From positions 1,922,001 through 1,986,000 of the forward strand of contig CDLV01000005.1 in the NCBI GenBank assembly GCA_001244265.2: 64,000 bases of DNA, in the 5' to 3' direction. Source of the DNA: Microbotryum violaceum (lineage: Eukaryota). The notes beneath the pieces are model-generated. The model had not been told where the DNA came from. It made no database searches and saw only the letters and a list, made by a program, of their open reading frames with translations. Each line of letters starts with the position of its first letter. Within the stretch, counting starts at the first letter, position 1. The position numbers and the translations under genes were made by a program. This document shows, piece by piece, positions 2,033 to 53,895 of the stretch.

Positions 2033-2965
2033 TTACATTTCGCCGATATCCTGCGAAGAACGTCCTCAAACCGTGTCAGCTCCATCCCTCACCAACGTAG
2101 AAGACGACCCCCCACATTCGAGCGACTGCCCGTCTCCTCTTTCCCGCCGTCCACAAGTGCCCAGCTGCATCACTCACCTCATTCCAAACCTCAGGCTTCT
2201 GCCTGATGAATTCCCTCATCAACCCCTTACACTTCTCCGAATCCAAATTGACGACTTCGACCCCATGATCCCTAAGGATCGATTCCCCACCGAGGAAGGA
2301 CTCGTTCTCGCCCAAAACGACCTTTTTGATCCCGTAAAGGATGATGGCACCACTGCACATGGGACAGGGGGAAAGGGTGGAGTATATGGTCGCATCTCGG
2401 TAGGCTTGGGCACTTAGTCGACCGATGTTCTCGAGGCAGTCCGTCTGTTGGTTTCGAGATGGACCAAAGTGGAAAAAGCGATGATGTCAGGGGTGGGGGA
2501 AAGATCGAACGTCGAGGAGGTTGAGAGATTCGACGAAGCTGGAGATGGGATATGAGAAGCGACGCACCTCTCCATGCCTGATCGCACTCCCTTGTTGCAC
2601 ACGTCGGTTTCGACCGACACCGATGACCACTCCATCCGATTCACGAACGAGTGCAGCTCCGATCGGCACCCCTCCTTCCTGAAGTCCGAGCTCGGCCTTT
2701 GCGCGGGTCGGAGCGAACGTGGGACCGGGCGTCAAGGTGGATTCGAGGCCAGAGCGAAGAACCGCATTTAGGTTGTAGATATGGTTGTCAAGTCAGTACA
2801 TTAGGAGCGAACCACTTCCGGATCCGATAAGATTGATCAACGCGGACCAAAACGGTCTTGGACGACGGCACTGACTTGGTAGATCGCATGAAGCATGTTG
2901 CGCACATCCGACTCTTTCGGATTCCGAGTCGGAGCCGTCTTGATAGGGTTAGAAGGAACAAGCAT
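2033..2965 (-). CDS. FCY1: cytosine deaminase (4 exons)
   Basis: The spliced product reads MLVPSNP...MLHAIYQ/AELGLQEGGVPIGAALV...AIRHGE/TDCLENIGRL...TLSPCPMCSGAIILYGIKKVVLGENESF...WNE/DIGEM*. It has HxE and PCxxC Zn motifs and GT-AG introns. Confidence 0.93.
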
Positions 2966-3147
2966 TGTTTTGAGCTGAAGAGGTTGATGTGGCGCGGTGA
3001 GTCGGAGAGGAGGGGAAGGGGGAGTTTCGCAGCTTGACATTCGAGGCGCTTCGGCCGTCTAGAAAGCTGCAACAGCGCTCACCGTCGGGAATCTGATATC
3101 TGAGGCTTGGCGCCGCAAGGTCGAGCACGCACTATCGCACCCCGCCC

Positions 3148-4236
3148 TGTATGAAAGGGGGGGGGCGGGCAAGGGGTAGGCGCCCCCCGGGGGGCCAATC
3201 CGAGACCCCCCGGGGGGACGCTTCGAGACACCCCTCGGAGTGTCGTTGATGAGATTCCCCCCGGGGGGGATCCTCAGCGTACGCGCGGAGTTGTACAATG
3301 TCTTATCCAATTACAGCACGCTGGTGCATCAGGTGCATGAGTGGTGAGGATGATGGTGGCGACGCCTTGGTGTAGTGGTGATTCGTTTGGTCGATCGTTC
3401 GGTCGATTGTTCGGTCAGAGGCTCGACGCATAATTTTCGTCTCGGGAGTAGCTCGGCACCCGCACGGTTCCGATGTAGTACAGGAGGTTTTCGCTGTTGC
3501 CCCCGCAGGACGCTGGTGCATAGAGTGCGAGGAACGGCTGCATGAGTTGTGGGGATGTTGGCGACGCCTTGGTATAGTCGTGATTCGTTCGATCAGAGGT
3601 TCAATCACAGGCTCGACGCATGATTTTCGTCTCGGGAGTAGCTCGGCACCCGCACGGTTCCGATGTAGTACAGGAGGTTTTCGCTGTTGCCCCCGCAGGA
3701 CGCTGGTGCATAGAGTGCGAGGAACGGCTGCATGAGTTGTGGGGATGTTGGCGACGCCTTGGTATAGTCGTGATTCGTTCGATCAGAGGTTCAATCACAG
3801 GCTCGACGCATGATTTTCGTCTCGGGAGTAGCTCGGCACCCGCACGGTTTCGATGTAGTACAGGAGGTTTTCGCTGTTGCCCTCGAAGGACGCTGGTGTA
3901 TCGAGTGGTGGAGGAGGGGGCTGAAGGCGGTACATTACAACAGTACCCCAGGAGGATGTGCGGTAGGTGGTTTCCCCCCGGGGGGAATCTCATGAACGAC
4001 ACTCCGAGGGGTGTCTTGAAGCGTCCCCCCGGGGGGAGACTTGTGAGCTTCCCCCCGGGGGGGATGCTCAGGGTACGCGCGGAGTTGTACAATGTCTTAT
4101 CCCATTACAGCACGCTGGTGCATCAGGTGCATGAGTGGTGAGGATGATGGTGGCGACGCCTTGGTGTAGTGGTGATTCGTTTGGTCGATCGTTCGGTCGA
4201 TTGTTCGGTCAGAGGCTCGACGCATAATTTTCGTCT
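3148..4236 (+). repeat. left terminal/subterminal repeat complex: 190-bp tandem units, ~12-bp TCGTTCGGTCGA-like repeats, six C6G6 palindromes
   Basis: GCTCGACGCAT(A/G)ATTTTCGTCTC recurs at 3421, 3611 and 3801 (period 190) and again near 4216 and 5031. CCCCCCGGGGGG occurs at 3183, 3206, 3257, 3974, 4025 and 4051. Confidence 0.92.
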
Positions 4237-4377
4237 CGCAAGCGAAAAAGGTGATTTGAAATCGAGTGAGAAGCGGGATCAAGCCTTGTGAGACGCGGTC
4301 TGTGTACCAATCAACGGGGTGTGTTTTTGGGAGTTGGGAACTGCATGTGCACGAAGTCTTGAGAGGGGGATCGATGA

Positions 4378-4982
4378 TCACGTGAAGAAGAGCGCGTCTT
4401 TGTGGTTGACGTGGACTTTGCCCAGACGACTACGATAATCGGCGAGGAGTCGTTCGCGCTGCTGCTGTTCCGCTGAAGCACCGGAGAGCGACGACATCTG
4501 CGACATGGCATCAGCACTCTCAGCCGCAAGATAGAACGCCGCGCGAGTGCACAGACGATCGGCATAGTAGGCCGGCGTCGTCACCGAAACCGATCTCGAC
4601 GCGCGAGCGTAGGTGAACGTCAGGTTGAAGGTGAGCTGTTGCCAAGCGTCGGCCGAGATCTTGGCCTCATCGAGGAGCACATTGTAGTGCGCGGAGCGAC
4701 TCGTACCTCGAAGACTGGCATGCGACTGAATGTAGAAATCGTGCTCGAATGGGGAGGTGACATCTGTTGTGGCGAGCGATCGCAGCCCACAATTGGATTA
4801 GCTGAGTTGCATGCAACCGTTGCCAAGAGCGTCGAAGAAATGACACCTACCGGTGTCAACACAAGTACCGGCCTTGACGTTGCCCGTCTTGTCGCCATCC
4901 ATGCCGCTTACAGGGAAGATGCTGAGGTGGTGCCTCTTGCCGCACACAACGAACGAGATGGTTGGATTGTAGTTCGGATCAT
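4378..4982 (-). pseudogene. Argonaute C-terminal PIWI-domain fragment with one intron (4764-4850); 5' truncated
   Basis: The spliced fragment reads DPNYNPTISFVVCGKRHH...GNVKAGTCVDT/DVTSPFEHDFYIQSHASLRGTSRSAHYNVLLDE...LTFTYARASRSVSVTTPAYYADRLCTRA...LFFT*, with hallmark PIWI motifs. There is no in-frame start, and it abuts an element repeat at 4983. Confidence 0.93.
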
Positions 4983-5120
4983 GACGCCTTGGTGTAGTGG
5001 TGATTCGTTCGGTCAGAAGCTCAATCACAGGGTCGACGCATAATTTTCGTCTCGGGAGTGGCTCGGCACCCGCACGGTTTCGATGTAGTAGAGGAAGTTT
5101 TCGCTGTTGCCCCCGCAGGA
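4983..5120 (+). repeat. additional copy of the element's subterminal repeat unit
   Basis: GACGCCTTGGTGTAGTGGTGATTCGTTCGGTCAG...GACGCATAATTTTCGTCTCGGGAG...CCCCCGCAGGA matches the units at 3361-3510 and 3564-3700. Confidence 0.9.
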
Positions 5121-5253
5121 GGCTGGCGTATGGGGTGCAGCGACACACAAGAGAAGGTTGCGGTGCAGAAGCTCAATTGGCACAACATGGCACAACATAC
5201 AAACTCGACAACTACGCTACGCAAGCTCAAACTGGACGCAAGACTGCAAATGA

Positions 5254-6695
5254 TTAACCGGAGAATTTACGCTCACGATTCGCAATTACGTTGTAGTTGG
5301 CGTCGCTCTCCGAACCTAGTTCGGTCAGCTCGGATAGGTCGAATTCAACCTCGGAAACGTGGTCGGATCCCTCCTCTGCTCCCGCCGCCAACATCGGAGC
5401 TGGACCCTTTCCCTTGGCATCCGTTTTCCTCCGCTTCCCACGGTATCTATCCTTTTCCTCCGCGGACAGTGTCAACCACTTGTTGGCACACTCGACAATC
5501 CACGCGTCCAAGACATTCTTCCTTTCGGCCTTGACGTCCGCATCGCTGAGTGGCTTGGGGGGTTCGCGACTGTGGACAAAGTTCTTCAACCCAATCGCTG
5601 GGAACCATCGTCGGAACGTGCTGTGGTCGGAGGCGAGCATATCCCAGTACTGATCGTAGGCTCGCCGCTTCGCACCGTCTAAGGGCTTGTAGGCCTTCTC
5701 GACGCGAGCAAGGCTGCGCTCCATGTCGTTTCGGCACGTCTCGGGCAACATGTCGACGGAAGGGAGGGGGCGTCGCCGTTGTTCATAGAGCGGTCGAACG
5801 ACTTCGCTGATCAGTTCCGACTGCTCACGCTTCAGGTCGACGTTGACGGGGATGGGTACTAGTCCGGCGATGGTGTCGTCATAGTCCTGGAGGCGGACCC
5901 TCCACTCCCTCAACAGTGTGGCGTCCGCCCCACCTTCCCGTGCCTTCTCCCGTAGGTATCCTTCCATTAGAACGTCCCTCCAACTGATGAGAAGGGTCAA
6001 AAGGCTCTGAGGCAGCCGTTGATATCCCTTGTGGGCGTCCCAAAGCTCATGGCGGTTCGGAGGCATGAGGTTCCGGAGGCCACCCTGGGTCGCATAGTCC
6101 CAGTCCTCGTCCTCCTGAGGGGGATCTTCCTCACCCCACGCCCGTAGGATTTCTTCGGGCTCGCACGCCAGTCGATCCGCCTTTCGTGCCTCCCACTCGT
6201 CGTGGGTCGCACGGTTCGCCTTCACCTGCGCCTCCAATGCGTCGAGTCTGGCCTTGACAGTCTTGCGGTATCTCCTCTTCAGGTTGCCAAAACCCTAATC
6301 AGATAATGAATATTGAGACAACGTGAGCCAAAGTCCACAAATGACGTAAATCATATTGATAGAAGTATTTTACCACTTACCGCTTGGACTTCAGGGTCGG
6401 TACCGATTAAGGGAAACGCCACCTCGTTGCCCCTGTACCGAGTGTCCGACGCCTTGAAGGTACAGTTGTGCTTGTCCCGGTAATGTTTCTTGATGTTTCG
6501 GACCATTTCCAGGGCGTGAACCTTCGCTACAGTGGGGGCGTTGGGGGACGTGTACCCCCCAGGCAGCTTGTAATCACCGATGCACAATCGACACCGCATG
6601 CGCCACTCGCCGGAGGGGGCGCGGACCAGGTGCGAGTCGACATCCAGCCATGCGAGATCGCCTTCCAGGGGCAGCTCCTGGGCGCGAGGAGCCAT
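5254..6695 (-). CDS. ~451-aa protein with N-terminal C2H2/BED-like Zn finger and C-terminal HMG-box-like region (intron 6295-6380)
   Basis: Exon 1 has CRLC...NIKKHYRDKH. A GTAAGT...ATTAG intron joins it in frame to the 327-aa ORF, which contains IVECANKWLTLSAEEKDRYRGK (HMG-box helix 2/3 signature W..LS.EEK..Y). Confidence 0.7.
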
Positions 6696-8326
6696 TGTGC
6701 GGCGAGAGTTGCGGGAGGGCCGACTCGGATCGACCAGACCAGACGCAACGGTAGAGATGCACGACGTCTGAAAGAAGGCCGTCGTAAGGCGTTTGTGGGT
6801 GATGCCCAGAGCAGTGAGGGGTAAGAGGGAAAGAGGGGACGAGAGGGATCACCCCGGGGGTGCGCTGTTTCGGCTCAGCCGAAGCGAAAACATAAAATAC
6901 CCTGCGAAATCCCCCCGATCCGCTCCGCGTCACCCACGCCATCACCCAATCACCCAATGCCTTTAGCCATTCATGCCAAGTTACAACCAGCATTGGCGTC
7001 TGCGAAAGACAAAGGACATCGAGTGTTTGCACGCGACAAATTGTACTGGCCACCAGGCACAGTGCCTGTTCCGGGCGTGAAGCAATACGTGGTCGGCACT
7101 CCACGCGAACTATATCAACGCTTGTGGGCAAGCGACTCAGCCCAAAACGAGAATTGCTACTATGAAATCATCGACGCTTCGCTGCCAAGCTGCTACTATA
7201 TCGATGTCGAATTTAAGCGTCCTTCAATTGACAATCCAGCCGAAATGGCGTTGTTGACGCGTAACGCAGCGTCGTATTTCCCTGGCGCTGAGCTTGAAGA
7301 TGTGGTCAGCTCGGACCTTGCGGTTTTGCGTTGGCAGGTCAGGAGTGCTGAGTTATCTCATTCATTGCTTTTCGTTTTCGTTGTTTTTCCACTTCAGCGC
7401 CAGCGAATAATCGCAGTTCTACTCTCCACCGCGGGCACGCCGTTCGAAGAACTTTACGCGGAACGAGTTCTTACCGACCTGCTGAACAAGATTCGTGTCT
7501 CACTTCGCCGGCGTCTCGGCGTCGACCTCGCGGGACGGCCAATCACCGTCCTTAGTGCTTCCACATCCTCGAAATTGTCGTTTCACATTGTCTTCCCAAT
7601 CGGGATGGACTCACATCTTACATCGTCCGCGGCACTCTCGTTCGAGCTCGCTTCAGCAATTCGCGGATTTTGCATTCAATCCTTGTCCGATATGATCAAA
7701 GACAACATACCGGATCGGATGATCGCCATTTCGCCATCGCTCCTATTTCTGCAGCTGACAGGGCAAGGAAAGGGATCGTACGTGTTTGATCTTGTTCCTT
7801 ACGGCCAACATCAGCTCTATCGACTCGGTGGCAACTCCAAAGCGCGGCAAGGAAGACCACTCCGGCCTGTACTAATGCCAGATCAGGCGACTCGAATCAT
7901 CGGTGACAACGATATGCGGTTTCGATTTAAGGACGTCTTCCCTACGTACACCACATGGTATCGAACATTTGTCCAGTCGGAGGGGATGGATATCATCTTG
8001 AACGAGACCCACCAGCCATTCACCATCAGCTTCCACCCGGCACACCCTTGGTCAACTCACGTCGCCAATGCCGGCTGCAATATCCTGGTGCGGGCTGATG
8101 TCGGCGCAATGGATTCCGCAACTGCGGAACGGCTTGCTGAACGTGCAAGACGTCGCAGGGACACGGACCGAGGCAACCAGGTACAGGCTCGCAGCGCTCG
8201 CAGAAGGGAAGTTGATGCAGAGGTGAATTCGCATATTCTCGAGGACACAGCGGCGATCGTACTTGATGACGGTACCACCACCAAACAATTCAATCTGATC
8301 ACGTTTGGGTTGTTGTGGGAAATTAG

Positions 8327-8491
<165 letters not shown>

Positions 8492-8587
8492 TAGTCGCTC
8501 TGTTACAGTCGATTGACCTTTAGCGACCCATTATCTCACAATAGGTCATCTATCGACGTCACGTAACTAGAGACGCTCCTACAATAA

Positions 8588-10306
<1,719 letters not shown>

Positions 10307-10309
10307 TGA

Positions 10310-17249
<6,940 letters not shown>

Positions 17250-20000
17250 TAGTCGCTCTGTTACAGTCGATTGACCTTTAGCGACCCATTATCTCACAAT
17301 AGGTCATCTATCGACGTCACGTAACTAGAGACGCTCCTACAATAACATGGGTCAACGGTTTACTGTCCGCGATGCGAATCCAAGGACACACCGGAGGGCC
17401 ACCAAGGTATTGGAGACCCTGTACGCGCCTTTTCCGAATTCTCCATACACCTCGCGGCGGTATGCTGACCATGCAGCAATTTCTTACTCTCAGAGTGCGC
17501 GAGTTTTCCCAACCGATGCGGGCGATCGAGCCCTCCATTGCTTCAGTTGCCGATCGACGTTGTTTGCCGCCACTACCTTCAAACGTGACCCCATGCAAGT
17601 TCTGCCAAATGAACGCATCGTGTTCACTGACCCCACGTGGCGTATCAATTCTCACGGACGGACCGACCTGAGTGTTGCTGCGGGCGTTCGTCTGTTGGCA
17701 ATTTCGGCCGCCACAGGGTTGGGAAAGTCGACCTTCATTCGCAGTATCCTCAACGACAGGCTGCGCGCCACTGTATGCGCAATGTCCTACCGCGAGTCCA
17801 TTGCCAAGTATCAGGCTCAGGAATGGAATCTGACGAACTATAAAGAGGATGGGGCATTCACCGAGCACAATGTAGCGCGGATCTCGACCTGCATCCATTC
17901 GATTACGCGAATACCGACGCATATGGCGTACGACATTGTCGTTCTGGACGAGGCGGATGCAATTAGGATGAGTTTGGGCGATTCAACCATGGACAGGCGG
18001 TACCATTTGGTGAGTGCAAGTGCATGTCTGTAGTTCAGCAATCCAATCTGCTAACTAACTGGCGTTTTCCAGGTGTATCAACGTCTTTGCGGTATCATGC
18101 GCTCGGCATCGCTTGTCATCCTGCTGCAGTCCGACCTGTCTCAAGATGTCGTCACTTGGGCTTCCGACCTTTGCATGGTGGATGCAGAGGACCGCTCCTT
18201 CGTCCAACGATCCTGTATTATGACACCACGAAGGCTTTACCCAATGGCTTCGTCCGATGATCTTGGCGTCGTTCTTGCCCAACTTCAGCATTTCTACAAA
18301 TCAAATTGGGATCCACGCCGATCTCGAGCAAGGTTCCCGACGCTCGTATTTTGTACCAGAAAACGTTTGCAGCCTCCTTATACGCCATGTTCAAGAGCTT
18401 TTGTACGCCCGAGCAGCGCCCAGGTATTCGTCTCGTGACCCGAGATACCTGCGCCCAAGACGACTGGGTCCAAGGTTTTATCAAGGATCCGAATGCGGAA
18501 ACGTCCGGAGCCGATATTGTGTTCGCCAGTCCTGTGCTCTCGGCGGGTCTTTCGCTCGACTGTCACTACACAGCGGGATTCTATTTTCTGCACAAGGGCA
18601 TCATCGCACATGACGCTGAATATCAAATGACTCAGCGACTCCGACACCAGGCACGCACTGATGAAATGCATGCCTACGTATACGCCTACATCGAAAAGGG
18701 GTGCGGCGACGAAAATCTGGCGTCCAAAGAACGGCTCTCCCAAATGTACTTCTCACTTGTCAGTACCGCTCGCACGGACGCTGGCATAGGCTTGGGCCTG
18801 GGTGGTGCGGGAAGCTTTCGTTTGCAAATCCAAGCCGAGGCCGCCGCGGAATTTGCTGATTCCCGGAATCGACACGCTTGGTTGTGGCAAGAACGGTACA
18901 ATGGCCACGTACTGGTGAAGATTGGCGGTGCCGAAGTGCCCATCACGTCGTCGGAGGCCGAGCGGCGAATCTTCTGGCTGTGCTCAATAAATACGTCAGG
19001 AATCGCTCCATCTGCGTGGCAAATTGGCATCTGGAAGATCCGCTTGCCGATTTACGGGCCGTGGCAGATGGGGAGCTGCACGCGGAGGTGGCATCACAGG
19101 TCCTGTTTGAGGCCTCCATCAAGGCCGACATGTTGATGGACGCCCTGATACGCAGCAATCGTTTCAAGGACGACATCTTACGTGACGTGGCTGTTCGCTT
19201 GCAACATGAATGCACCGCTCACCACGCCCCATGGCTGGGGGCTTTCGCGTTCGACCGTTGGCTTTCACTGGTGCTTTTTGAGACGGGGCTCAAAAAGGAC
19301 CCCTGGATGTGGCGCAGCAAAGCGATTGGGGGCGTTTCAAGGCACGCCTCTGCCTTGGCTGGGTCAGAGCTCTTACGAGCGATGCAAAATTTCCTTTACA
19401 CTGATTTCGCCATCGATGGCGATCGCGATCTCGGGATTATCGCGCCTGGCGACACGATAGACTTGTCCGAGGGCTCCGAGGATGAACGCAGGATCATGGA
19501 GTTCCGTCTGCGTTGCGCGAATCCACAAAGTGCTGAATATCGTCTGTGGAATGCGACGAACCAGAAGAAAATCGTCGCAGGGGATAAGGGCGTATATAAC
19601 ACAGCGTACAAGTTTATCAAGAGGGTTTATCACCTGGGTTGCGGTGTGCCGCTGCGGCGCTCCGCGGACGGCAGCGGCGCCACTTGGTCTAGCGATTATC
19701 TGAACTGCACAGTTCTTGCGTTGCTAGCCACACGCCATGATTCCCTGATCGAGGACTGGCATATGCTAAGGAGCTACGATCTGGACTGTGCCGTCGAGAG
19801 GGCTGAGGCAATCTTGGACGAGTGGTCACACTCGAATGTAATGCCCATGGACGTAGAGGACGTAGAGGACGTGGAGGATGAGGCTGGCGAAGGTGAAGGC
19901 GATGTCGATGAACTGCTACCGCGCCTGCAATAAATGATATTGATTCTTGAACTTCATTTCCGTGAACTGTCGATTGAATGACGACTGGGTAGCGGAAATG

Positions 20001-20280
20001 GAGACGAAAATCATGCGTCGAACCTGTGATCGAGCCTCTGACCGAACGATCGACCGAACGAATCACCACTACACCAAGGCGTCGGCCCCCTCATCCTCAC
20101 CACTCATGCACCTGATGCACCAGCGTGCTGTAATGGGATAAGACATTGTACAACTCCGCGCGTACCCTGAGGATCCCCCCGGGGGGAAACCACCTACCGC
20201 ACATCCTCCTGCGGTACTGTTGTAATGTACCGCCTTCAGCCCCCACCCCTTGCCCGCCCCCCCCCCCCACCTTTCATACA
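20001..20280 (-). repeat. right terminal inverted repeat of the PrimPol-helicase element
   Basis: The reverse complement matches 3148-3178 at the tip and 3916-4236 internally. It contains a single C6G6 palindrome at 20175-20186. Confidence 0.9.
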
Positions 20281-20322
20281 GGGGGGGGGGGGGGGAGGGA
20301 GGATGTGTGTGTGTGTGTGTGT
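20281..20322. repeat. poly-G run followed by (TG)n microsatellite
   Basis: G15 followed by a TG dinucleotide run, directly visible. Confidence 0.9.
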
Positions 20323-21015
20323 GGGTGCGGACGTATCTGGCCGGATGGGAGCGGGTGGCGCCCCGAAAAAAACAGCCGAGTGGTTAAAGAATATTACGCG
20401 TTTTTTTTGGGCCGCCCCGCCCGCCGGCCAGCCGAGATTTTAACTGTTCACAATGTCATTATCTGGCATATTGATCTCTGCCGAATCCTAGAATAGCAAC
20501 TTAGGCTTGTTCCTTTCCGTTCTTTGGCAAAATGTAGACAGCGATTACATAGATCGTGTCACCTCCGTCGGGCCGGGTTTGCAGCCTGAGTCCTGAGTGG
20601 GTGTTATCTTGCCGACGCCTTGCGCGCGTTGCGCCAGCGTCTGCGTGCCTGCGCCGGTCGTTTCCCCGCGCTGCTCAGGCGCTCAGCAGGGCTGCCCACC
20701 ACGATCACAGCAAACCCACTCGACAAGGTTGGCACCGTACAGCGCTTCTTCGGCAGCAAAACGGGGCTTGCGGCTCACCACAACACTCGGACTGGTTGTA
20801 TCCGTGCTTTCAAAAGAGTGAATACGCCTCACTAGGCTACCGAATAGTGGTTGCCTGCGGGACCCAGCAACTCGTGTGCGGACCCGGCCGCTGAGCTCGA
20901 GGTCTCAGCCGTCGCCGCCGCCGCCGCCAGACGATCCCGAGACGCCGAGCGCAAGTGATCGGTGCGACCACCTTGTCCGCCGTTCTTGGAGTGCACACTG
21001 TTTGCGTGAACGACC

Positions 21016-46423: not shown

Positions 46424-48567
46424 CCCGTGTCCGCGCCGCTTATCCTCTCCTCGGTTCCGCACCGTCGACAGTTTATGAACGGCTTCAGCACTGCGACCCT
46501 CTGCCGAGGGTCAGTGGGTCCCCCAACATTGGAACCTCATTCACGCGATCCGTCGCACACTCAGTAGTCTCCTTCCTCAACAGGACCTTACAGCAGCCTG
46601 CTGCTTTCCAGAAACCCTCGACGCACGCATGCCTGCCACGCGCTCGACTCAGGTAAGTCTTCGGAATACGCTCGGCTTGTTGCACGACGTACTCATTATT
46701 TACTTGCTGTGCAGTAGCTCTCCGCGACCTCTCTGTACGATCCCTACCCTCTCCTGGGATGCCCTAGTTGGGCGCACCAAACTGACGCATAGCATCCTGT
46801 AAGCTGCCTTCCACGTTCCATTGTATTGGACGCCCGCGCTACGCCTTGCAAAGGGATGCTACGCTGCGCCCTGTCCTAGTTGCCGTGTTTACGTAAAAGC
46901 GATTCTTCTCTTTCTTGAGCTTTTGCAGCACGCCTTTGGCGCGCTATCAAGATCTTCTCTTTGCCACCCCACGATAAGGACAATCCGTTCCCGGTTCCGC
47001 TGAAGCGAACGACAGACAAGGTCAAGCTGGGGTACGCGTCGCTATTTGATGCAGGCCTTGCGGAGAATGTGCGCAGAGATCTTATAACCAACTTCTCTCT
47101 CGAGGAGGGAATCACCAAAAACCATCCCTCTGGGTATATCGAAGTGGGCTTTTGGACAGACGTTCATCTCGCGATCGACAACCTCGGGGAGCTTCACCCC
47201 GTCGCCGCCTATGCCTTGGCCTTGGAGGACGTTAAAAAATTCTTCCAAGCAAACCGCTTTCGTTGCTGGACGAACGACAACTACTACCGCAAGCGCGCAA
47301 CTTCAGCGGCACCTGCTCCCACGACCCTGCTATTGGGGAGCTCGAGGGCGCCTCGATCTTCACCCCGGCTACGTCGGCTGCCGATGGGGTTCTAGGGCCC
47401 CCTCAAATCGTCGCGACAGAAGGCGTTGGCGAAATCCCATCCTACCACCTAGCGCTCTCCCTTGGGGAAGGTACGGGATGGGACTTCGCCAACGCCTTTT
47501 ATCGTCACGATTTGAGGGGCAACATAAACCACAGCGGTAGACGGCGTAGCCGGAGCGATGATCGAGGGGCCTTCCCCGTTAGCGGGGTCGAGGGGAGCAA
47601 GTGCCGCTGAAGTTGCGCGCCTGCGGTAGTAGCCTTCGTTAGTCCAGTAGCGAGAGCCGTTTGCTTCTACGAAGTCTCTAACATCCTTCGAGACCAGGAA
47701 GTGCGCGACGAGGGGCGGGGTGAAACTCCCCAAGATTATCGATCGCTAGAGGAATGTCCGCCGGGATGGCACGCAGCTGTCCCAGCCAAAAGACCAGTCC
47801 GACATTCCCAGAGGCGTCGTTTTCTGGTCGATCCCGCCTCGAGAGAGAGCTTGATCACCAGATCTCTGCGCGCGTTCTCCGTAAGAACTTCGGCAGATAG
47901 CGACGCGTGCACCAGCTTCACCACGTCGATCGTTCGCTTCAGCGAATCCGGGATCGGATTGTCCTTATCGTGGGGTGGCAAAGACATGATCTTGATGGCG
48001 CGCCGAAGGCGTGCTGCAAAAGCTCAAGAGACAAAGGGATCGCTTTGGGAGACGTAGCGATCGGATATAATAAGCAGACAGGGCAAGTAGGACGGAGGCG
48101 CAGCGTAGCATACCTTTGCGAGGCGTAGCGCAGGCATACAATACAATGGAACGAGCGTCCGGGAACATTCCGCGGAAGGTAGCCTATAGGATGCTATGCG
48201 TTAGTTTGGTGCGCCCAACTAGGGCATCTCAGGAGAGGGTAGAGATCGTACAGAGAGATCGCGGAGAACTACTGCACAGCAAGTAAATAATGAGTACGTC
48301 GTGCAACAAGCCGAGCGTATTCCGAAGACTTACCTGAGTCGAGCGCGTGGCAGGCGTGCGTGCGTCGAGGGTTTCTGGAAAGCAGCAGGCTGCTGTAGGG
48401 TCCTGTTGAGGAAGGAGACGGCTGGTGCGACGGACCGCTTGGATGGGGTTCCAATGTTGGAAGACCACTGACACTCGGCAGAGGGTGGCAGTGCTGGAGC
48501 AGCGAGCTGGTTCCAGAAAGTTTCGACGGTGCGGAACCGAGGAAAGGGTAAGCGGCGCGGACGCGGG
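46424..48567. repeat. ~2.1-kb imperfect palindrome (two ~1-kb inverted arms, ~17-20 bp spacer at ~47451-47467)
   Basis: 46424 CCCGTGTCCGCGCCGCTTA pairs with 48549-48567, and 46600-46800 pairs with 48185-48395. The arms encode paralogous PPHDKDNP..LKRT ORFs on opposite strands. Confidence 0.92.
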
Positions 48568-48891: not shown

Positions 48892-50667
48892 CTAAATCAA
48901 CAGCAAGTCCTCGCACTCTCCGGCGTGTTCGGATCCAACCGACCAATCTCGCGTCGTCTCGTCGCAGGTCCCAAAGATTCCAAAATCGTACCAGCGCTTG
49001 TTCGTCCAGCTTTTGACATCAACGGCAAAACCGTCGATGGGAATGAAGAGGCATTGACCTCGCCCAGTGTTAGCAGTCCACATGTAAGTCGTGTTGCGCC
49101 GCCTCGCTTCGATCGCGCAGGTTTCGACGGAGGTGCGAGGCCAGAAGTTGAAAGGGCTTGTGCGGGCACCGTACATGAAGGTGCCACCTATAGACATAGG
49201 TGTAGATCTCATCAGCTTCTGAAGGTTCAGTGGGCCAGAGAGGGGCCGACGGGCTAGCCCAAGTCGAGTGTGGACCCCATAGGCCGGGCCGGGATGACTT
49301 ACGACCATAGCGAGACGAGTAAGGACCTTGACAAGCAATGGTCCCGTTCATGGTACCACTGACTTTATAGCCTTTATCGCATATAAGAGAATTATTGGTG
49401 TCTTCGCAGGTTAGGGTGAAGTTGGAGCAGCATGAACTCCCTGTAAAGTGAGGCCAAGCAGCAATGTCAACCCTTCTCTGTCCTACTCCAAGGGCCGCTG
49501 TCTTAAACTTGAGTACCACTCACCATGAACGCTGACCGGACCTGTCGGACACATGACTTCTTTACATTGACCGCCACTGACATCCCCGTAACTACACGCA
49601 GTGGCTTGTCCCTGATCGTCACACGAAGTCGAGTTGGTCGGACAGTCCAGGCATGAAAGTCCTAACAGATTAACAAATCCCAAGACTCAGCGTCAAGTTA
49701 CATCCGCATAGTTCTTACCAGACTCACTATCTTTGGAAGGATATCTGGGTGGTGATCCACTGCAATCCGCGGGTTTGGGGCACCTCCCATCCGAAGGCGT
49801 TCCATACTTGCATGAGAGCGAGCCGCCAGAGTTGCACGTGATTGCATAGGGGTCAGGGCAGCAGCCGTTGCCTGTGGGAAATAACGAAATATGCATCTCC
49901 CGTCAGAGTTCCCCAGAGCTTCGCACCGCTTTGATAGCATTCCAGTCCAGTTCTGACATACCATCAGTGTTGACTGAAGAGGTGGGACACTTGATCGCGA
50001 CGCAAGCACCATTCTCAGGTACGCCATACGAGCAGGCCGTCGAGCCGCCGTTGCGATCGCATGACGTCGCGTTTTGACTCGGGCAAGGATAGCACGAGAC
50101 ATCTTCGGGAAAAAAATGATTAATATCCAAATCAGACGAAGGTAAAATGGGCAGCGAGCCAGACCAGAGTGACTGACTGTCGGGTGCAAGGTAGCGCGGT
50201 GGAGCGCCGTTGCAGTCCCACGACGTGAGACAATATCCATCCTTGGGGGCAATGCCACTCTTGCACGTGACCGCTTCAGAGGAAGTGCAAGTGATGGCAT
50301 AGGGATCTTGACAAGCGATGCAGCGTCGACCTGTCGATTGAAATAAGATGCCCGCGTGAGCTAAGGTTCTCCACATCGTCGAAGTATCTGCAAAACTCTG
50401 CTCGCACCTACCATCGGCCGACGGATATAGGCCAGCTGGGCATTGGATAATGTTCTCGTCGATGCGCATGGTTCCGGTGCAAGGGATCACTCGGGGGCTA
50501 CGCTTGATGGGGAAGTCCCGCGCGAACAGGGAGGAAGATGGGGCCTGAGGCGGGATTCGCATTGCATCGACGAAGGCGGACTGCGACACCGCCAACAGAG
50601 TCACGGCGACAGAAAGGAGGCTCGACATCGACGTTGCAGTGGCAGCACGAACCGCTGAGTTGGTCAT
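48892..50667 (-). CDS. secreted cysteine-rich protein, paralog A, multi-exon
   Basis: Signal-like MSSLLSVAVTLLAVSQSAFVDA. Repeated C..C.DPYAITC / C.PCP..NATSCD modules occur in short exons, and the product ends CEDLLLI*. Confidence 0.78.
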
Positions 50668-51497
50668 GGTGAGATATTGAATGTGAAGTGTGGGACGGGA
50701 AGAAGACCGGGAGAGGACACGGATTTCCTGGAATAGCAACACCTCTGATGTTACCTCGACGCGAGCAGAAACCTATCCTCAATGATAGCACTGCAAAAGG
50801 AGACGAATGCCTCGCAAGACCATCGCGCTTGAAGAAAACCTTCCTGATCGGGGTGCCCGATCAATACCTCTGCTTGCCTCTGCCCGCATCCGCCTAACCA
50901 CGCAGGCACCGCCCGATCGGCGCCTCTGTCCGCATCCGCCCTTCCTCACAGGCGCGACCAGAGCAATCTTCGTCTACAACCGCTCGCATCAGAAGACGAC
51001 CCAAACGACCAAGAAGTTTCGCCGCCATGTGCCTGTGATCACACACTCGCTCGCAAGGTGATCATGTACGGTTATGAGGCGTGTACGTGCAAAATCGTTC
51101 TTCTGTGTTTGACCAAGAGTTTGAGCGTGCATTCGTATGCGAGTCTTCTGCATTATCAGTCCATAGAGTACAAATTACCTTCTGCGCGTCCGAGCCTCCA
51201 TGTCTTATAAGCCCGTTCGAATCGGATTTGCCACTCTGAATGCCGTTGAAAGGTTTTCCGAGTTCGCCGACCACCGTATGCGAACATAGCTGACTTAATA
51301 TCCTAGCCATAATATGCACAGTTTCAATACTCTTATGAGTAGGTAGAGTCTCAGGGTGATACAACACAGCGCCCACAACTGGGTTGCTGATCTTCACGTG
51401 ACTTTTTACCGGACGAGGCGCCTTCCGCCTCCTATTCAGACTATATCAAACCCGCGAAAGATTCGATATATCAAAGACTGTTGACAAGCCGACTCAA

Positions 51498-53300
51498 CTA
51501 AATCATCAACAAGTCTTCGCACTCCGAAGCATGCTCTCTCCCGACTGGCCAGTTCTGCGTCGTTTCTGCACACGTCCCAAACTTTCCAAAATCGTACCAA
51601 TGCTGAGCGCCCCAATCCTCTCGCCCAACGTTGAAATCTTCAGTGTGTTAGAAGACGCATTGACCACGCCCGGTGTAAGCTGTCCACATAAAAGTCAGGT
51701 TGCGCTGATAGGCTTGGATCGCGCAGGTCTCGACCGAGGACTGAGCCAGATAGGCCACCATCCAACGGCCAGCATCGCCGTACTTGTAGGTCTCGCCTGT
51801 TTGAAGCATTCCAGAACATCAGTATATGTCTTAGTATTTGAATATGGATAGCGCACAAGCATGACGCGAAGGTTCAATAGTCTCAATGACTCACGGCCAT
51901 AGCGGGACGAGTACGGTCCCTGACAAGGTATAGTTCCGTTGACTGTGCCGTTGACTTTGTAACCGCCTTGACAGGTGAGGGAAGTGTTCGCGTTCTGGCA
52001 CGAAGTCGTGAAGTTGGTGCAGCATGATCCCCCTATCGAGCGTGAATCACATCCGTCAGCGCCGAGGTCCCCTCAGCCGAGCAAAGATCGCTCACACCTC
52101 GCCGGAACTTGAAAGGGGATGATGAGGAACTCACCATCATTGCTGACTGGTCCATTCGGGCAGATCACCTCCTTGCATTGGCCAGCAGTGAGAGCACCGT
52201 AATTGCACTTGGTCGCTTGCCCCTGATCGTCACACGAGGTCGAATTAGTTGGACAGTCGAGACACGAAAGCTCTGTCGCCGGGCCAAAAATTATTAAGAT
52301 TTAGTAATCGGTCCTTCAAGCCGGGATTGCCCTCACGGCCTTCGTCGAGGACTCACGGTCTTTGGAAGGATATCTTGCAGGTAATCCACTGCAATCTGCG
52401 GGTTTGGGGCAGTTCCCATCCGAGGGAGAACCGTACTTGCAAGACAGCGAGCCGCCCGAGTTGCACGTGATCGCATAAGGGTCCGAGCAGCACCCGTTGC
52501 CTGCGAGACGTAGAGCCATGTTGCCGCAGCGTATAAGATGCACCAATCATGAAGGGAGCATGGCTAAGAACGTCATACCGAGAGCAGACTCACCATCAGT
52601 GTTGACGGAGGAGGTGGGACACTTGACCGCTACGCAGGCGCCATTATCAGGCACACCGTAGGAGCAGCCTGTCGAGGCGCCGGTGCGATCGCAGGATGTC
52701 GCGTTCTGTCCAGGGCAAGGATAACAGGAGAGATCTTTAAAACCGCGGGAGAAATCTCAAACATTAGTATGGATAGTATCAAAAAAAAGTAATGTAGAAG
52801 AAGATTCAAAGTGACTGACTGTCGGGTGCCAGGTAACGCGGTGGAGCGCCGTTGCAGTCCCACGAAGTGAGACAATATCCATCTTTAGGGGCAATACCAC
52901 TCTTGCACGTGGTCGCTCCCGCGGATGTGCAAGTGATGGCATAAGGATCTTGACAAGCGATACAGCGCCGACCTGTAAATTGAAAGTGCATTCGGAAGTG
53001 AGCTAAGGTTCTCCACATCGTCGGAGTATCTGCAAAACTCTGCTCGCACCTACCATCGGCCGACGGGTATAGGCCAGCTGGGCATTGGATAGTGTTCTCG
53101 TCGATGCGCATGGTTCCGGTGCAAGGGATCACGCGAGGACTACGCTTGATGGGGAACCTCCGCTCCGATAGGGATGAGGATGGGTCCCGAGAAGGGATCC
53201 GCATCGCGTCGACGAAGCCGGAGTGCGACAGCGCGAGCAGCGTCACGGCGGCGGAAAGGAGGTTGGACATGGGTGACTTGAAGAAGGCTGTGTTGGTCAT
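51498..53300 (-). CDS. secreted cysteine-rich protein, paralog B, multi-exon
   Basis: Exon-by-exon similarity to paralog A (PIKRSPRVIPCTGTMRIDEN.IQCPAGLYPSADG; CQDPYAITC). It ends CEDLLMI*. Confidence 0.78.
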
Positions 53301-53895
53301 GTAGAACGTTGAGCGTAAAGTGTGGAATGGGAGGAAGAGCAAGAAAAAGTGCCAGCGACGGTAGGACATTCATAGAAGAGCTACACCTATGAGGTCACCT
53401 TAACAAGAGCAGAAGTCCGTCATCAATGATAGCACTGCAAAAGGGGACGAACGCCTCGTGAGAATGTCGCGCTTGAAAAGAACCTTCCTGATCTGGGCGC
53501 GGTCAGCGCCTCTGTCCGCATCCGCTGTTGATGGCCAAAGCCGGAGGGTCCAATTTCCGCGGGATTCGCCGCTTGTCTCGACCAGAGCCTTCGTAGATCC
53601 CTCCTTCACAGCTCCAGTTGCACGCACCTTCCTTTGTCGAGGAACTCCGACCTCGATGGGTATGCCGACTCGGAGACTGCTGATCACGTGATGCCTCCGT
53701 TTCTGCGCCGGTCAAGATTGAGTGACCCATTCCCGAGAGCCACCAAATCTCGAGCATTCTCAGATCCTAAGCCTTCAAGAAGAGAATGTTCTATTACAAG
53801 CGTCCCACAGTGGATCTGACATCCTCCTAGCAAGTCCGAACCCGAGTCACTCCGAAAGCTTTTACTGGTCGAAACTGTCTTTCGATTCTCGTCGC

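What the first reader, a model, noticed from the sequence alone, without database searches (positions are those of the whole stretch)
4237..4982. Argonaute PIWI C-terminal fragment captured between the element's own subterminal repeats
Seen: ~170 codons of the PIWI C-terminus, the stop codon and ~140 bp of 3' flank are bracketed by element repeat units (ending 4236, resuming 4983). The retained GT-AG intron indicates DNA-level capture rather than retroposition. The frame is open but has no start. Known: Argonaute is the effector of RNAi-based transposon silencing, and gene fragments captured by TEs can yield siRNAs against the donor gene. Inference: small RNAs against the element could also hit host AGO mRNA, giving a counter-silencing decoy; neutral Pack-TE-style capture is the alternative.
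Basis: partly seen in the sequence, partly recalled or inferred. Interest (0 to 1): 0.85.

Follow-up and report, generated by a model that had tools for sequence, protein, structure and literature searches.

The report
Argonaute gene piece inside a transposon
One copy of a rare DNA mobile element in the anther-smut fungus Microbotryum carries the last 700 bases of the host's own Argonaute gene, most likely pasted in during DNA repair, and nothing yet shows that it helps the element escape silencing.

Summary
Window 4280-4980 (minus strand) is the 3' end of a Microbotryum Argonaute gene. It holds a partial exon, an 87-nt GT-AG intron, the last exon, the stop codon and 98 nt of 3' flank. It lies inside a ~17-kb element with inverted ends, between that element's ~190-bp subterminal repeat units.

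It is already a public gene model, MVLG_06889 (145 aa, M. lychnidis-dioicae), which starts at an internal ATG. "No start" is therefore wrong.

Contigs from public runs bridge both junctions. They also show the full-length donor gene (AGO-A type, MVLG_06823-like) elsewhere in the same genome. By k-mer depth the fragment is single-copy, while the element interior is about two-copy.

The fragment is 160/172 aa identical to AGO-A of three species alike. Four of its substitutions fall at positions that are otherwise invariant. It replaced at least 118 bp of repeat and has short filler at both joints. The carrying copy's main gene is broken by a copia/gypsy nest.

Best reading: a non-adaptive templated insertion (Pack-TE-like capture). 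A 173-nt block identical to the donor suggests later gene conversion. The counter-silencing decoy idea could not be tested because no small-RNA data were available. Copy number argues against it.

The carrier is itself unusual: it encodes a PrimPol-like primase fused to a UL9-like helicase.

The parts
3146..3177 (+). Left terminal tip of the carrier element (begins CCCTGTATGAAAGG). It is the inverted match of the right tip at about 20250-20283.
   Evidence: Pairwise alignment of 3100-3300 with the reverse complement of 19990-20340.
3204..3444 (+). First copy of the end module. It contains CCCCCCGGGGGG palindromes. Segment 3206-3273 is inverted relative to 3969-4036.
   Evidence: Repeat families D2 and I1. 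blastn: 3246-3444 matches 4041-4238 at 97.5% and 20188-20001 at 92%.
3395..3964 (+). Three tandem subterminal repeat units of about 190 bp.
   Evidence: Family D1, four copies including 5005-5194.
3908..4238 (+). Second copy of the end module, the inverted match of 20244-20001. It ends in a truncated unit (4155-4238) at the same point where the right-end module ends.
   Evidence: blastn: 3916-3992 matches 20244-20168 and 4049-4237 matches 20188-20001. Alignment.
4239..4279 (.). 41 nt of filler of unknown origin between the repeat unit and the donor-derived DNA.
   Evidence: Donor contigs diverge before 4280 (loose ends in X1, X2, X15). blastn-short finds no other match in the window.
4280..4377 (-). 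98 nt of AGO-A 3' flank. It is rich in indels relative to the donor in the same genome.
   Evidence: X1 record 2 and X2 record 24 align from 4280. Indels at 4319-4344.
4378..4763 (-). Last exon of the Argonaute fragment plus the stop codon (4378-4380).
   Evidence: Piwi E 1.2e-22. 94% identical to M. saponariae AGO P0001.
4764..4850 (-). Retained 87-nt GT-AG intron.
   Evidence: Read directly from the sequence. The Piwi profile is continuous across it. It is skipped in RNA-type contig X16 record 22. The donor version has 6 substitutions and 8 gap letters over 4762-4897 (X1 record 5).
4851..4980 (-). Partial upstream exon, cut off at its 5' side. The in-frame ATG at 4902-4900 is used by gene model MVLG_06889. 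Bases 4981-4982 are 2 nt of filler.
   Evidence: Piwi E 2.3e-5. P0010 sequence. Donor contigs run on into upstream AGO coding sequence after 4980.
4983..5194 (+). Repeat unit that resumes from its first base, so at least 118 bp of unit sequence was replaced by the insert.
   Evidence: blastn: 4983-5126 matches 3563-3706 at 91.7% and 4983-5131 matches 3753-3901 at 90.6%. Family D1.
5254..6848 (-). Element ORF in two exons with a Cys/His finger-like motif. No family was found. It lies upstream of the AGO piece on the same strand.
   Evidence: ORFs. No convincing Pfam match (none; only a sub-threshold 0.073 zinc-finger match on the first exon). No homologue of 190-606 aa.
6900..8310 (+). N-terminal half of the element's large gene: a PrimPol-like archaeo-eukaryotic primase domain.
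   Evidence: Profile A1 hits human PrimPol chains 5l2x and 7jk1 at E 1.6e-11. Atlas points to AEP_C962R / Herpes_UL52. P0013 residues 1-289 align to 7422-8309.
8311..17347 (+). Copia retrotransposon with 279-bp LTRs 100% identical and a TGGGT target duplication. A gypsy element is nested at 10709-15072 with 224-bp LTRs 100% identical. The nest splits the large gene.
   Evidence: Pfam, self-blast, flanks.
17353..19933 (+). C-terminal part of the large gene: a P-loop helicase resembling herpesvirus origin-binding protein (UL9), plus a tail.
   Evidence: P0013 residues 317-1093 are collinear with 17494-19825. Atlas: Herpes_ori_bp clusters at 0.96. Weak PDB profile hits to origin-binding protein, E about 0.06. 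Weak AAA_22.
20001..20283 (-). Right end module and terminal tip of the element.

Best explanation
The window comes from Microbotryum lychnidis-dioicae or a near-identical relative. One copy of a low-copy element with inverted ends acquired about 745 bp in its left subterminal repeat region.

The element spans about 3146-20283. Without its nested retrotransposons it is about 8 kb. It encodes a PrimPol-like primase fused to a UL9-like helicase.

The acquired DNA consists of 41 nt of filler, 701 nt copied as DNA from the 3' end of the host Argonaute gene AGO-A (MVLG_06823 type), and 2 nt of filler.

Inferred mechanism: a break inside the repeat array was repaired by copying an ectopic template, probably on the same chromosome. 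This deleted at least 118 bp of repeat. That is the way Pack-TE-like gene fragments and filler-DNA insertions arise.

The piece is a gene relic. It holds only the last 172 of about 860 codons and lacks the N, PAZ and MID domains and most of PIWI. It has drifted about 6-7% from the donor, apart from a 173-nt block that is identical to it. That block is best explained by later gene conversion.

The piece has not spread with the element, and the copy that carries it is now disabled by a copia/gypsy insertion.

Shown here: identity of the piece, the intron, both junctions, a donor elsewhere in the genome, single copy by depth, and a broken carrier. Inferred: the repair mechanism, gene conversion, and neutrality.
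For: Identity and organism:
- Piwi domain matches on both exons.
- 100% identity to MVLG_06889.
- 160/170 aa identical to P0001 residues 689-858 of 859.
- In an IQ-TREE tree the fragment falls in the AGO-A clade (95/92). It sits in an unresolved three-way split with M. saponariae and M. lychnidis-dioicae plus M. silenes-dioicae. Its end branch is 0.046, against 0.026 for M. saponariae and about 0.008 for the pair.

Junctions and donor:
- X1 record 1 (4140-4648) and record 6 (4890-5014) bridge the left and right junctions with 0 differences.
- X2 record 23 bridges the left junction with 0 differences.
- 14 of 24 listed runs hold at least 0.89 of the sampled words. These come from 4 studies and 10 samples.
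- Donor-type contigs align only over 4280-4980 and then run on into other sequence.

Copy number from k-mer depth:
- X1: fragment-specific contigs 6.46, 6.2 and 4.87, against donor-specific contigs 5.91 and 4.6.
- X2: fragment-specific 42.2 and 44.7, against donor-specific 36.8 and 45.1.
- The element interior from 4985 is at 12.9 in X1 and 85.6 in X2, about twice single copy.
- At 4983 another path enters from an ordinary repeat unit (loose end).
- The X1 contig from 4985 is 6060 nt long. Interior without copia would be 3326 + 2734 nt and would end near 20086, so a sibling copy without copia and without the AGO piece is likely.

Relaxed constraint: four substitutions, L63R, L121F, D128A and M172T. 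The first three sites are invariant in all 8 comparison sequences. At 172, 7 of the 8 have M and Sporobolomyces has L.

Mosaic divergence: no differences over 4619-4791 (X1 record 3 at depth 9.1, about twice single copy). Next to it, 4762-4897 has 6 substitutions plus 8 gap letters, and 4280-4648 has 35 differences plus 21 gap letters.

Deletion plus insertion: the unit breaks at 4238 and restarts at its first base at 4983.

Disabled carrier: P0013 is collinear across the copia nest, and the nested LTRs are 100% identical.
Against: - Contig depth is only a proxy for copy number, and the tool warns against reading it as such.
- The sibling-copy inference rests on one contig length, and the predicted end is about 5 nt off a repeat boundary.
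- The coding part is much less diverged than the 98-nt 3' flank, and it has no stop or frameshift in 172 codons. Selection on the reading frame could produce this, as could gene conversion. I could not compute dN/dS because the donor's nucleotide sequence was only partly shown (99 difference rows were hidden).
- The 145-nt exonic part of the identical block would let any siRNA made from it match AGO-A mRNA perfectly.
- The fragment is held by every high-share run, so it may be fixed. That is compatible with benefit as well as with drift.
- No target-site duplication could be read at the element tips, so mobility of this exact 17-kb unit is inferred from its repeated ends, not shown.
Confidence: 0.65

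Rival explanations
1. Counter-silencing decoy. Transcripts of the element that include the AGO piece are turned into siRNAs by the fungal RdRP/Dicer pathway. These siRNAs also hit AGO-A mRNA, which lowers RNAi pressure on the element. The model is the capture of nxf2, piwi and aubergine fragments by Drosophila telomeric retrotransposons.
For: - The captured gene is the RNAi effector.
- A block of at least 173 nt (145 nt exonic) is identical to the donor in the same genome.
- M. lychnidis-dioicae has expressed RdRP, Dicer and two AGOs, and AGO-A is the copy induced during infection (PMC4469406, passages).
- There is precedent: seven captures of piwi or aub and one of nxf2, with piRNAs targeting the host gene (PMC13534243 passages; PMC7785250 abstract). 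CACTA elements carrying miR820 target rice DRM2 (PMC3459959, listing and abstract start only).
- The piece is on the same strand as the element ORF at 5254-6848 and downstream of it, so read-through could transcribe it. This is inference.
Against: - By depth there is one copy, in one of about two element interiors. In Drosophila, capture families have higher copy numbers and the captured piece is amplified.
- The carrier's main gene is broken.
- No inverted partner of the piece exists in the window.
- Depth shows only three PIWI-tail sequences in the genome.
- No small-RNA data exist to show any siRNA.
Confidence: 0.08
2. In-situ relic. A third AGO gene, or a partial duplicate of AGO-A, once stood here between AGO-A and AGO-B and was shredded by transposon insertions. 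Only its 3' end remains, so the element did not capture anything.
For: - The fragment shares a 35,749-nt public contig with AGO-B (MVLG_06899) and with the element's primase gene (MVLG_06887). It therefore lies an inferred 4-32 kb from AGO-B.
- Its locus-tag number falls between those of the two AGO genes.
- Three residues (I22, V161, V163) match the B paralogue.
- Five Piwi/Argonaute-domain genes are absent from one M. silenes-dioicae strain, which suggests a dynamic AGO region (PMC5967549 passage).
Against: - The sequences that abut the fragment are internal element sequence in one orientation. If the insert is removed they rejoin into the normal element layout. Element tips do not abut it.
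- No other AGO exon lies in the 64 kb.
- A host deaminase gene lies about 350 bp outside the left tip.
- There is filler at both joints.
Confidence: 0.07
3. Foreign origin. The capture happened in another Microbotryum lineage, from that lineage's AGO-A, and the element copy or the chromosome segment reached M. lychnidis-dioicae later by introgression or horizontal transfer. This concerns origin, not function.
For: - The fragment is equally distant (160/172) from AGO-A of M. lychnidis-dioicae, M. silenes-dioicae and M. saponariae.
- It shares A125, M131 and A152 with M. saponariae only, and lacks the I134 and V152 states of its own genome's AGO-A.
- The element interior is nearly identical between its two copies (0 and 1 differences over 316 nt), yet the fragment is 6-7% from the resident donor.
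Against: - It shares V25 with the resident lineage.
- The tree does not resolve its position.
- T131M is a CpG transition that can recur.
- A position between the two resident AGO genes fits a local template better.
- A block identical to the resident donor exists.
Confidence: 0.12
4. Exapted piece. Either the 145-aa PIWI tail is made as a protein that interferes with Argonaute, or the AGO 3' flank serves as the terminator of the element ORF upstream of it.
For: - There is an open frame with an ATG, and it is a public gene model.
- No stop or frameshift occurs in 172 codons, whereas the flank and intron carry at least 8 indels.
- It lies on the same strand as ORF 5254-6848 and downstream of it.
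Against: - It holds less than half of the PIWI domain (profile 182-299 of 302).
- It has radical changes at invariant residues, including the C-terminal residue.
- No expression evidence was obtainable.
- The genome paper does not mention the locus tag MVLG_06889 (0 occurrences).
Confidence: 0.04

Closest known systems
Capture of piwi, aubergine and nxf2 fragments by Drosophila telomeric retrotransposons (PMC13534243, passages read; PMC7785250, abstract read)
   Same: A mobile element carries a piece of a host silencing gene, here also an Argonaute-family gene. Identity to the host gene (about 93-94%, with a perfect 173-nt block) falls in the range where those captures yield cross-targeting small RNAs (76-95% reported).
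   Different: - Here the carrier is a DNA element in a fungus, not a LINE in an animal germline.
- The piece is about 700 bp with an intron, against 140-235 bp.
- It is in one copy and not amplified.
- No small RNAs are known.
- The pathway would be siRNA/RdRP, not piRNA ping-pong.
Pack-MULE, CACTA and Helitron gene-fragment capture (transduplication), including rice CACTA miR820 versus DRM2 (PMC3459959, listing and abstract start only)
   Same: A host gene fragment with its intron lies between the ends of a DNA transposon, and the donor gene is intact elsewhere.
   Different: - The carrier has no recognisable DDE or HUH transposase.
- The fragment sits in the subterminal repeat array with a matching deletion.
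- There is no evidence that the fragment-bearing version has transposed.
Filler-DNA or templated insertion at double-strand-break repair (general knowledge, recalled)
   Same: A deletion of resident sequence is combined with insertion of ectopic sequence. Short untemplated or unknown stretches lie at both joints (41 nt and 2 nt).
   Different: At about 700 bp it is long for a typical filler, and it happens to be in a transposon.
PrimPol / AEP primase plus UL9-type helicase replication proteins (herpesvirus primase and origin-binding protein, ASFV C962R-like, cyanobacterial plasmid CyRepA1). This concerns the carrier element.
   Same: - The three AEP motifs are conserved in alignment A1.
- A profile of A1 hits human PrimPol at E 1.6e-11.
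- The helicase part resembles Herpes_ori_bp clusters.
   Different: - Here the two domains are fused in one gene of a chromosomal, inverted-end, multi-copy fungal element.
- Only 16 relatives at E <= 0.001 were found among 1.84 billion representatives.
- No integrase or transposase was found.

Membership tests
Argonaute / PIWI domain (Pfam PF02171) | Significant match to the Piwi profile | tested here: met
   E 1.2e-22 and 2.3e-5 for the two exons. E 3.4e-29 for the spliced public model P0010.
Argonaute / PIWI domain (Pfam PF02171) | Full N-PAZ-MID-PIWI architecture of a working Argonaute | tested here: not met
   Only profile positions 182-299 of 302 are present. The piece aligns to residues 689-858 of an 859-aa AGO. 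No other AGO exon lies in the window.
Argonaute / PIWI domain (Pfam PF02171) | Conservation of residues that are invariant in relatives | tested here: not met
   L63R, L121F and D128A fall at sites invariant in all 8 comparison sequences. M172T falls at a site where 7 of the 8 have M.
Pack-TE-like gene-fragment capture by a DNA transposon | Host gene fragment located between the element's terminal inverted repeats | tested here: met
   The fragment at 4280-4980 lies between the tips at about 3146 and 20283 and is flanked by repeat units.
Pack-TE-like gene-fragment capture by a DNA transposon | Copied as DNA (intron retained), with an intact donor elsewhere | tested here: met
   The intron at 4764-4850 is retained. 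Donor contigs with the same intron run on into upstream AGO sequence. Full-length MVLG_06823 exists.
Pack-TE-like gene-fragment capture by a DNA transposon | The fragment-bearing element has transposed (several copies carry the fragment, with target-site duplications) | tested here: not met
   Fragment depth equals single-copy depth in X1 and X2. Only one short Piwi protein was found in the protein collection. No target-site duplication is readable. Depth from contigs is a proxy.
Anti-silencing capture (TART-nxf2, piwi/aub type) | Captured gene belongs to the silencing pathway, and identity is high enough for small-RNA cross-targeting | tested here: met
   Argonaute. A 173-nt block identical to the donor.
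Anti-silencing capture (TART-nxf2, piwi/aub type) | Small RNAs from the captured region that are antisense to the host gene | not testable with these tools
   No RNA holder was listed. No Microbotryum small-RNA study was found.
Anti-silencing capture (TART-nxf2, piwi/aub type) | Capture-bearing copies predominate or are amplified | tested here: not met
   By depth, one fragment against about two element interiors and more ends.
Archaeo-eukaryotic primase, PrimPol-like (carrier element's gene) | Conserved AEP motifs and a profile match to a solved PrimPol | tested here: met
   Invariant K250, L251 and H254 and near-invariant acidic residues in A1. 5l2x and 7jk1 at E 1.6e-11. The naming of the motifs is recalled.
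UL9 / Herpes_ori_bp-type SF2 helicase (carrier element's gene) | Significant profile match to the family | tested here: inconclusive
   Atlas feature hits at 0.93-0.96 to Herpes_ori_bp clusters. The PDB profile gives only E about 0.06. Pfam gives only weak AAA_22.

The most novel reading that the evidence does not exclude
A fungal DNA element that replicates with its own primase-helicase has taken a piece of the host Argonaute gene. Gene conversion keeps a block of it perfectly matched to the host gene. siRNAs raised against the element would then also silence AGO-A, the Argonaute copy induced during plant infection. This would be the first anti-silencing gene capture outside animal piRNA systems and plants, and the first by an element of this kind.
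Probability: 0.07. Interest if true: 0.8.

Novelty: new member of a known kind. Interest (0 to 1): 0.4.

Why it matters
Capture of silencing-gene fragments by transposons has recently been shown to be a recurrent counter-defence in Drosophila. A fungal case would show that the strategy is general and works through siRNA pathways.

The evidence here points to an ordinary, single-copy, decaying capture. The main practical results are:
- MVLG_06889 is a transposon-borne relic and should not be counted as a third Argonaute.
- It gives a clean, testable locus for the decoy idea, because fragment-specific bases allow small RNAs and transcripts to be assigned to it.
- The carrier is a rare element that encodes a PrimPol-like primase fused to a UL9-like helicase and has no recognisable transposase. 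It may deserve study in its own right.

Tried and rejected
- No whole genome is held for this window, so element copies could not be counted directly.
- No RNA holder was listed among the sequencing runs, so expression and small RNAs could not be examined.
- X15 (organism C) has a contig identical to the fragment over 4762-4897 beside a donor-type contig. No listed contig bridges either junction, so I cannot tell whether that organism carries the capture.
- 99 difference rows and 38 contig rows were not shown, so no full donor alignment, dN/dS or formal gene-conversion test was possible.
- phmmer of the primase ORF and of the helicase ORF against PDB sequences found nothing. Only the profile search did.
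- The ORF at 5257-6294(-) has no Pfam family and no homologue of 190-606 aa.
- There is no tRNA in 3000-5400. I had suspected that the repeat unit was tRNA-derived.
- Rfam gave only sub-threshold hits (mir-1460 at 39 bits against a gathering score of 74, on the palindromic end region; RsmW). I rejected these as chance hairpins.
- Alignment A2 of the large protein's tail was too shallow (4 sequences) to justify a structure prediction, so none was run.
- Literature searches found no description of a fungal primase/UL9-helicase transposon and no Microbotryum small-RNA data. These searches cover only the held open-access library.
- Supplementary table S3 of PMC5967549, which lists the five Piwi/Argonaute-domain genes, could not be opened. 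It may name this locus.
- Earlier scan notes: nothing was on record.
Full report
**What is in the sequence**

The window is eukaryotic, at 52-62% G+C. Its best protein matches are Microbotryum proteins.

On the minus strand, 4851-4983 and 4381-4763 translate to 172 codons of an Argonaute C-terminus, ending in a stop at 4378-4380. Each exon, sent as an unbroken reference, matches Pfam Piwi. The last exon scores E 1.2e-22 over profile 224-299/302, and the partial upstream exon scores E 2.3e-5 over profile 182-222. The matches are adjacent in the profile. The 87 nt between them (4764-4850) begin with GT and end with AG on the minus strand, so this is a real retained intron.

tblastn with four full-length Argonautes finds only this piece in the 64 kb.

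**It is already annotated**

A search for proteins of similar length returned one hit, P0010. This is MVLG_06889 of M. lychnidis-dioicae p1A1 Lamole, 145 aa, 100% identical, spliced at the same intron and starting at the in-frame ATG at 4902-4900. [quoted passage not shown]

**Which gene it came from**

The piece is 160/170 identical to residues 689-858 of the 859-aa M. saponariae AGO P0001. Against the "A" orthologues of M. saponariae, M. lychnidis-dioicae (MVLG_06823) and M. silenes-dioicae it is 160/172 in each case. Against M. intermedium A it is 150/172, and against the "B" paralogues it is 82.5-83% identical (137/165, 137/165 and 141/171). I left the M. lychnidis-dioicae B model (P0008) out of the tree because its annotated C-terminus is out of frame.

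The tree places the fragment in the A clade (95/92). It sits in an unresolved three-way split with M. saponariae and the M. lychnidis-dioicae / M. silenes-dioicae pair. Its end branch is 0.046, against 0.026 for M. saponariae and about 0.008 for the pair.

Four of its substitutions stand out. L63R, L121F and D128A fall at positions invariant in all eight comparison sequences. M172T falls where seven of the eight have M and Sporobolomyces has L. Three residues (I22, V161, V163) match the B paralogue. Three (A125, M131, A152) match only M. saponariae A. One (V25) matches only the resident lineage.

**Independent reads** (contigs of four coded public runs laid on 4000-5300 at 80% likeness)

- *Junctions.* In X1, a 509-nt contig (4140-4648) and a 125-nt contig (4890-5014) bridge the left and right junctions with no difference. 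In X2, a 509-nt contig bridges the left junction. No X2 contig across the right junction is among the rows shown. Fourteen of the 24 listed runs hold at least 0.89 of the sampled words. These come from four studies and ten samples, one of which may be the source of the window. The structure is therefore not an assembly artefact.
- *Donor gene.* In the same runs, a second set of contigs aligns only over 4280-4980. Beyond those points it runs on into other sequence. After 4980 that sequence reads, on the minus strand, as upstream Argonaute coding sequence. This is the intact donor gene. It has the same intron, with 6 substitutions and 8 gap letters over 4762-4897.
- *B paralogue.* A third set (for example X2 record 25, with 76 differences over 4378-4766 and a different intron) is the B paralogue.
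- *Splicing.* X16 holds intron-less contigs. Record 22 skips 87 nt at 4765->4853, within 2 nt of my borders, and one synonymous change explains the shift. The intron is therefore spliced in a real Argonaute mRNA of a related organism.

**Copy number**

K-mer depths of fragment-specific contigs equal those of donor-specific and B-specific contigs:
- X1: 6.46, 6.2 and 4.87 for the fragment, against 5.91 and 4.6 for the donor.
- X2: 42.2 and 44.7 for the fragment, against 36.8 and 45.1 for the donor and 38 for B.

The contig that starts at 4985 in the element interior has about twice that depth (12.9 in X1, 85.6 in X2). At 4983 a second path enters from an ordinary repeat unit. In X1 that interior contig is 6060 nt long. 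The interior without the copia nest would be 3326 + 2734 nt and would end near 20086, about 5 nt from the start of the right-end repeat. I therefore infer a sibling copy that lacks both the copia and the Argonaute piece.

The tool warns that contig depth is no copy number. For single-organism DNA runs I treat it as a proxy only.

**The carrier element**

Self-comparison shows:
- a terminal tip at about 3146-3177 that is inverted at about 20250-20283;
- an end module present at 3204-3444, 3998-4238 and, inverted, at 20001-20244;
- units of about 190 bp at 3395-3964, 4155-4238 (truncated) and 4983-5194.

The unit breaks at 4238 and a new unit starts from its first base at 4983. Relative to the intact array, at least 118 bp of repeat was lost where the 745 bp came in. 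The 41 nt at 4239-4279 match nothing else in the window. Two extra bases sit at 4981-4982.

The combination of deletion, insertion and filler at both joints is what break repair on an ectopic template leaves. This step is inference.

Element-internal sequence, in one orientation, flanks the piece on both sides. A host cytidine/cytosine-deaminase-like gene lies about 350 bp outside the left tip. Insertion of elements into a resident Argonaute gene is therefore unlikely.

**What the element encodes**

ORF 6825-8516 is an archaeo-eukaryotic primase:
- A profile of it and nine relatives (A1) hits human PrimPol at E 1.6e-11.
- The Atlas points to AEP_C962R and Herpes_UL52 clusters.
- Only 16 proteins among 1.84 billion representatives match at E <= 0.001. 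They come from Microbotryum species, from Cryptococcus wingfieldii and from unnamed assemblies.

An intact 1120-aa relative (P0013) is collinear with 7422-8309 and 17494-19825. Its later part resembles herpesvirus origin-binding-protein (UL9-type) helicases and cyanobacterial plasmid replication proteins. The PDB support for this is weak, at E about 0.06.

The gene is split at 8310/17353 by a copia element with a TGGGT target duplication and 279-bp LTRs that are 100% identical. The copia in turn holds a gypsy element with 224-bp LTRs that are 100% identical. This copy of the carrier is therefore disabled, and recently so.

No transposase or integrase was recognised. The two-exon ORF at 5254-6848(-) has no family and no homologue. 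I could not read a target-site duplication at the tips.

**Genomic neighbourhood** (inference from public records)

MVLG_06887 (the primase, marked "partial"), MVLG_06889 (the fragment) and MVLG_06899 (AGO-B) are each reported on a single contig of 35,749 nt. If that is one contig ending in the copia LTR, AGO-B lies 4-32 kb to the left of the fragment. By locus-tag order, AGO-A lies further to the right. A nearby template on the same chromosome fits ectopic repair. It also keeps the relic-of-a-duplicate idea alive at low probability.

**Divergence pattern** (unexplained in part)

Fragment and resident donor are identical over 4619-4791. That is 173 nt, including 28 nt of intron, and the shared contig has double depth. 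The adjoining 4792-4897 has 6 substitutions and 2 indels. 4280-4648 has 35 differences and 21 gap letters, many of them in the 98-nt 3' flank.

An abrupt switch from 0% to more than 5% divergence is best read as a gene-conversion tract. Constraint on the reading frame cannot be excluded. A proper test needs the full donor sequence, which the truncated tables did not give.

**Function**

The decoy hypothesis has real precedent. Drosophila telomeric retrotransposons have captured nxf2 once and piwi or aubergine seven times. Those fragments are 140-235 bp and 76-95% identical to the host gene. They yield piRNAs against the host gene, and capture-bearing families have higher copy number (PMC13534243, passages; PMC7785250, abstract). 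Rice CACTA elements with miR820 target DRM2 (PMC3459959, listing and abstract start only).

In this case the gene class and the identity fit. The copy number, the dead carrier and the lack of any inverted partner do not. No small-RNA or RNA holder was available.

I put the decoy at about 7-8%. I put a neutral, Pack-TE-like templated insertion, later touched by gene conversion, at about 65%. Origin in another Microbotryum lineage, an in-situ relic and an exapted peptide or terminator are the remaining readings.

**Verdict**

DNA-level capture is supported. The counter-silencing role is not supported by the tests that were possible, and it was not directly tested. This is a new member of a known kind, with moderate interest. 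The interest is raised somewhat by the unusual primase-helicase carrier.

Noticed in passing
window 3146-20283 (without the nested retrotransposons at 8311-17347): The carrier is an element of about 8 kb with inverted ends and subterminal arrays of 190-bp units. Its one large gene fuses a PrimPol-like primase to a UL9-like helicase. No transposase or integrase was recognised. Only 16 relatives at E <= 0.001 were found among 1.84 billion representatives. Three literature searches of the held library found no description. It may be an undescribed kind of eukaryotic mobile element.
   Followed up: partly
window 3178-3275 and 3973-4062: Segments of 63-68 bp bounded by CCCCCCGGGGGG palindromes lie in opposite orientation in the two left-end modules (3206-3273 against 3969-4036, 94% complementary). 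This looks like an inversion between palindromic sites in the element end.
   Followed up: no
window 8311-17347 and 10709-15072: A gypsy element (chromodomain integrase) is nested in a copia element. Both have 100% identical LTRs, so both are very recent insertions. The copia has a clean 5-bp TGGGT target duplication.
   Followed up: yes
protein P0008 (MVLG_06899, AGO-B of M. lychnidis-dioicae): The public model's last ~150 residues do not align with its orthologues and read like an out-of-frame translation. Either the B gene carries a frameshift in that strain or the assembly or model is wrong. DNA contigs of run X2 do hold a B-type PIWI tail.
   Followed up: partly
window 46424-48567: A stretch of about 2.1 kb matches its own reverse complement at 79%. 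It is a large palindrome or foldback structure of unknown nature.
   Followed up: no
window 49721-50853 vs 52350-53497, and 61885-62971 vs 64000-63435: There is a direct repeat of about 1.1 kb (78%) and, at the window's end, inverted repeats of 170-220 bp (84-93%). These are probably further transposon remains.
   Followed up: no
window 2076-2792 (-): A host gene with a cytidine/deoxycytidylate deaminase zinc-binding domain (E 2.8e-9) lies about 350 bp outside the element's left tip.
   Followed up: partly
PMC5967549 (passage): Five genes with Piwi/Argonaute domains are reported absent from one M. silenes-dioicae strain. Together with the inferred clustering of AGO-A, the fragment and AGO-B, this suggests one deletion of the whole AGO region. 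The supplement that names the genes could not be opened.
   Followed up: no
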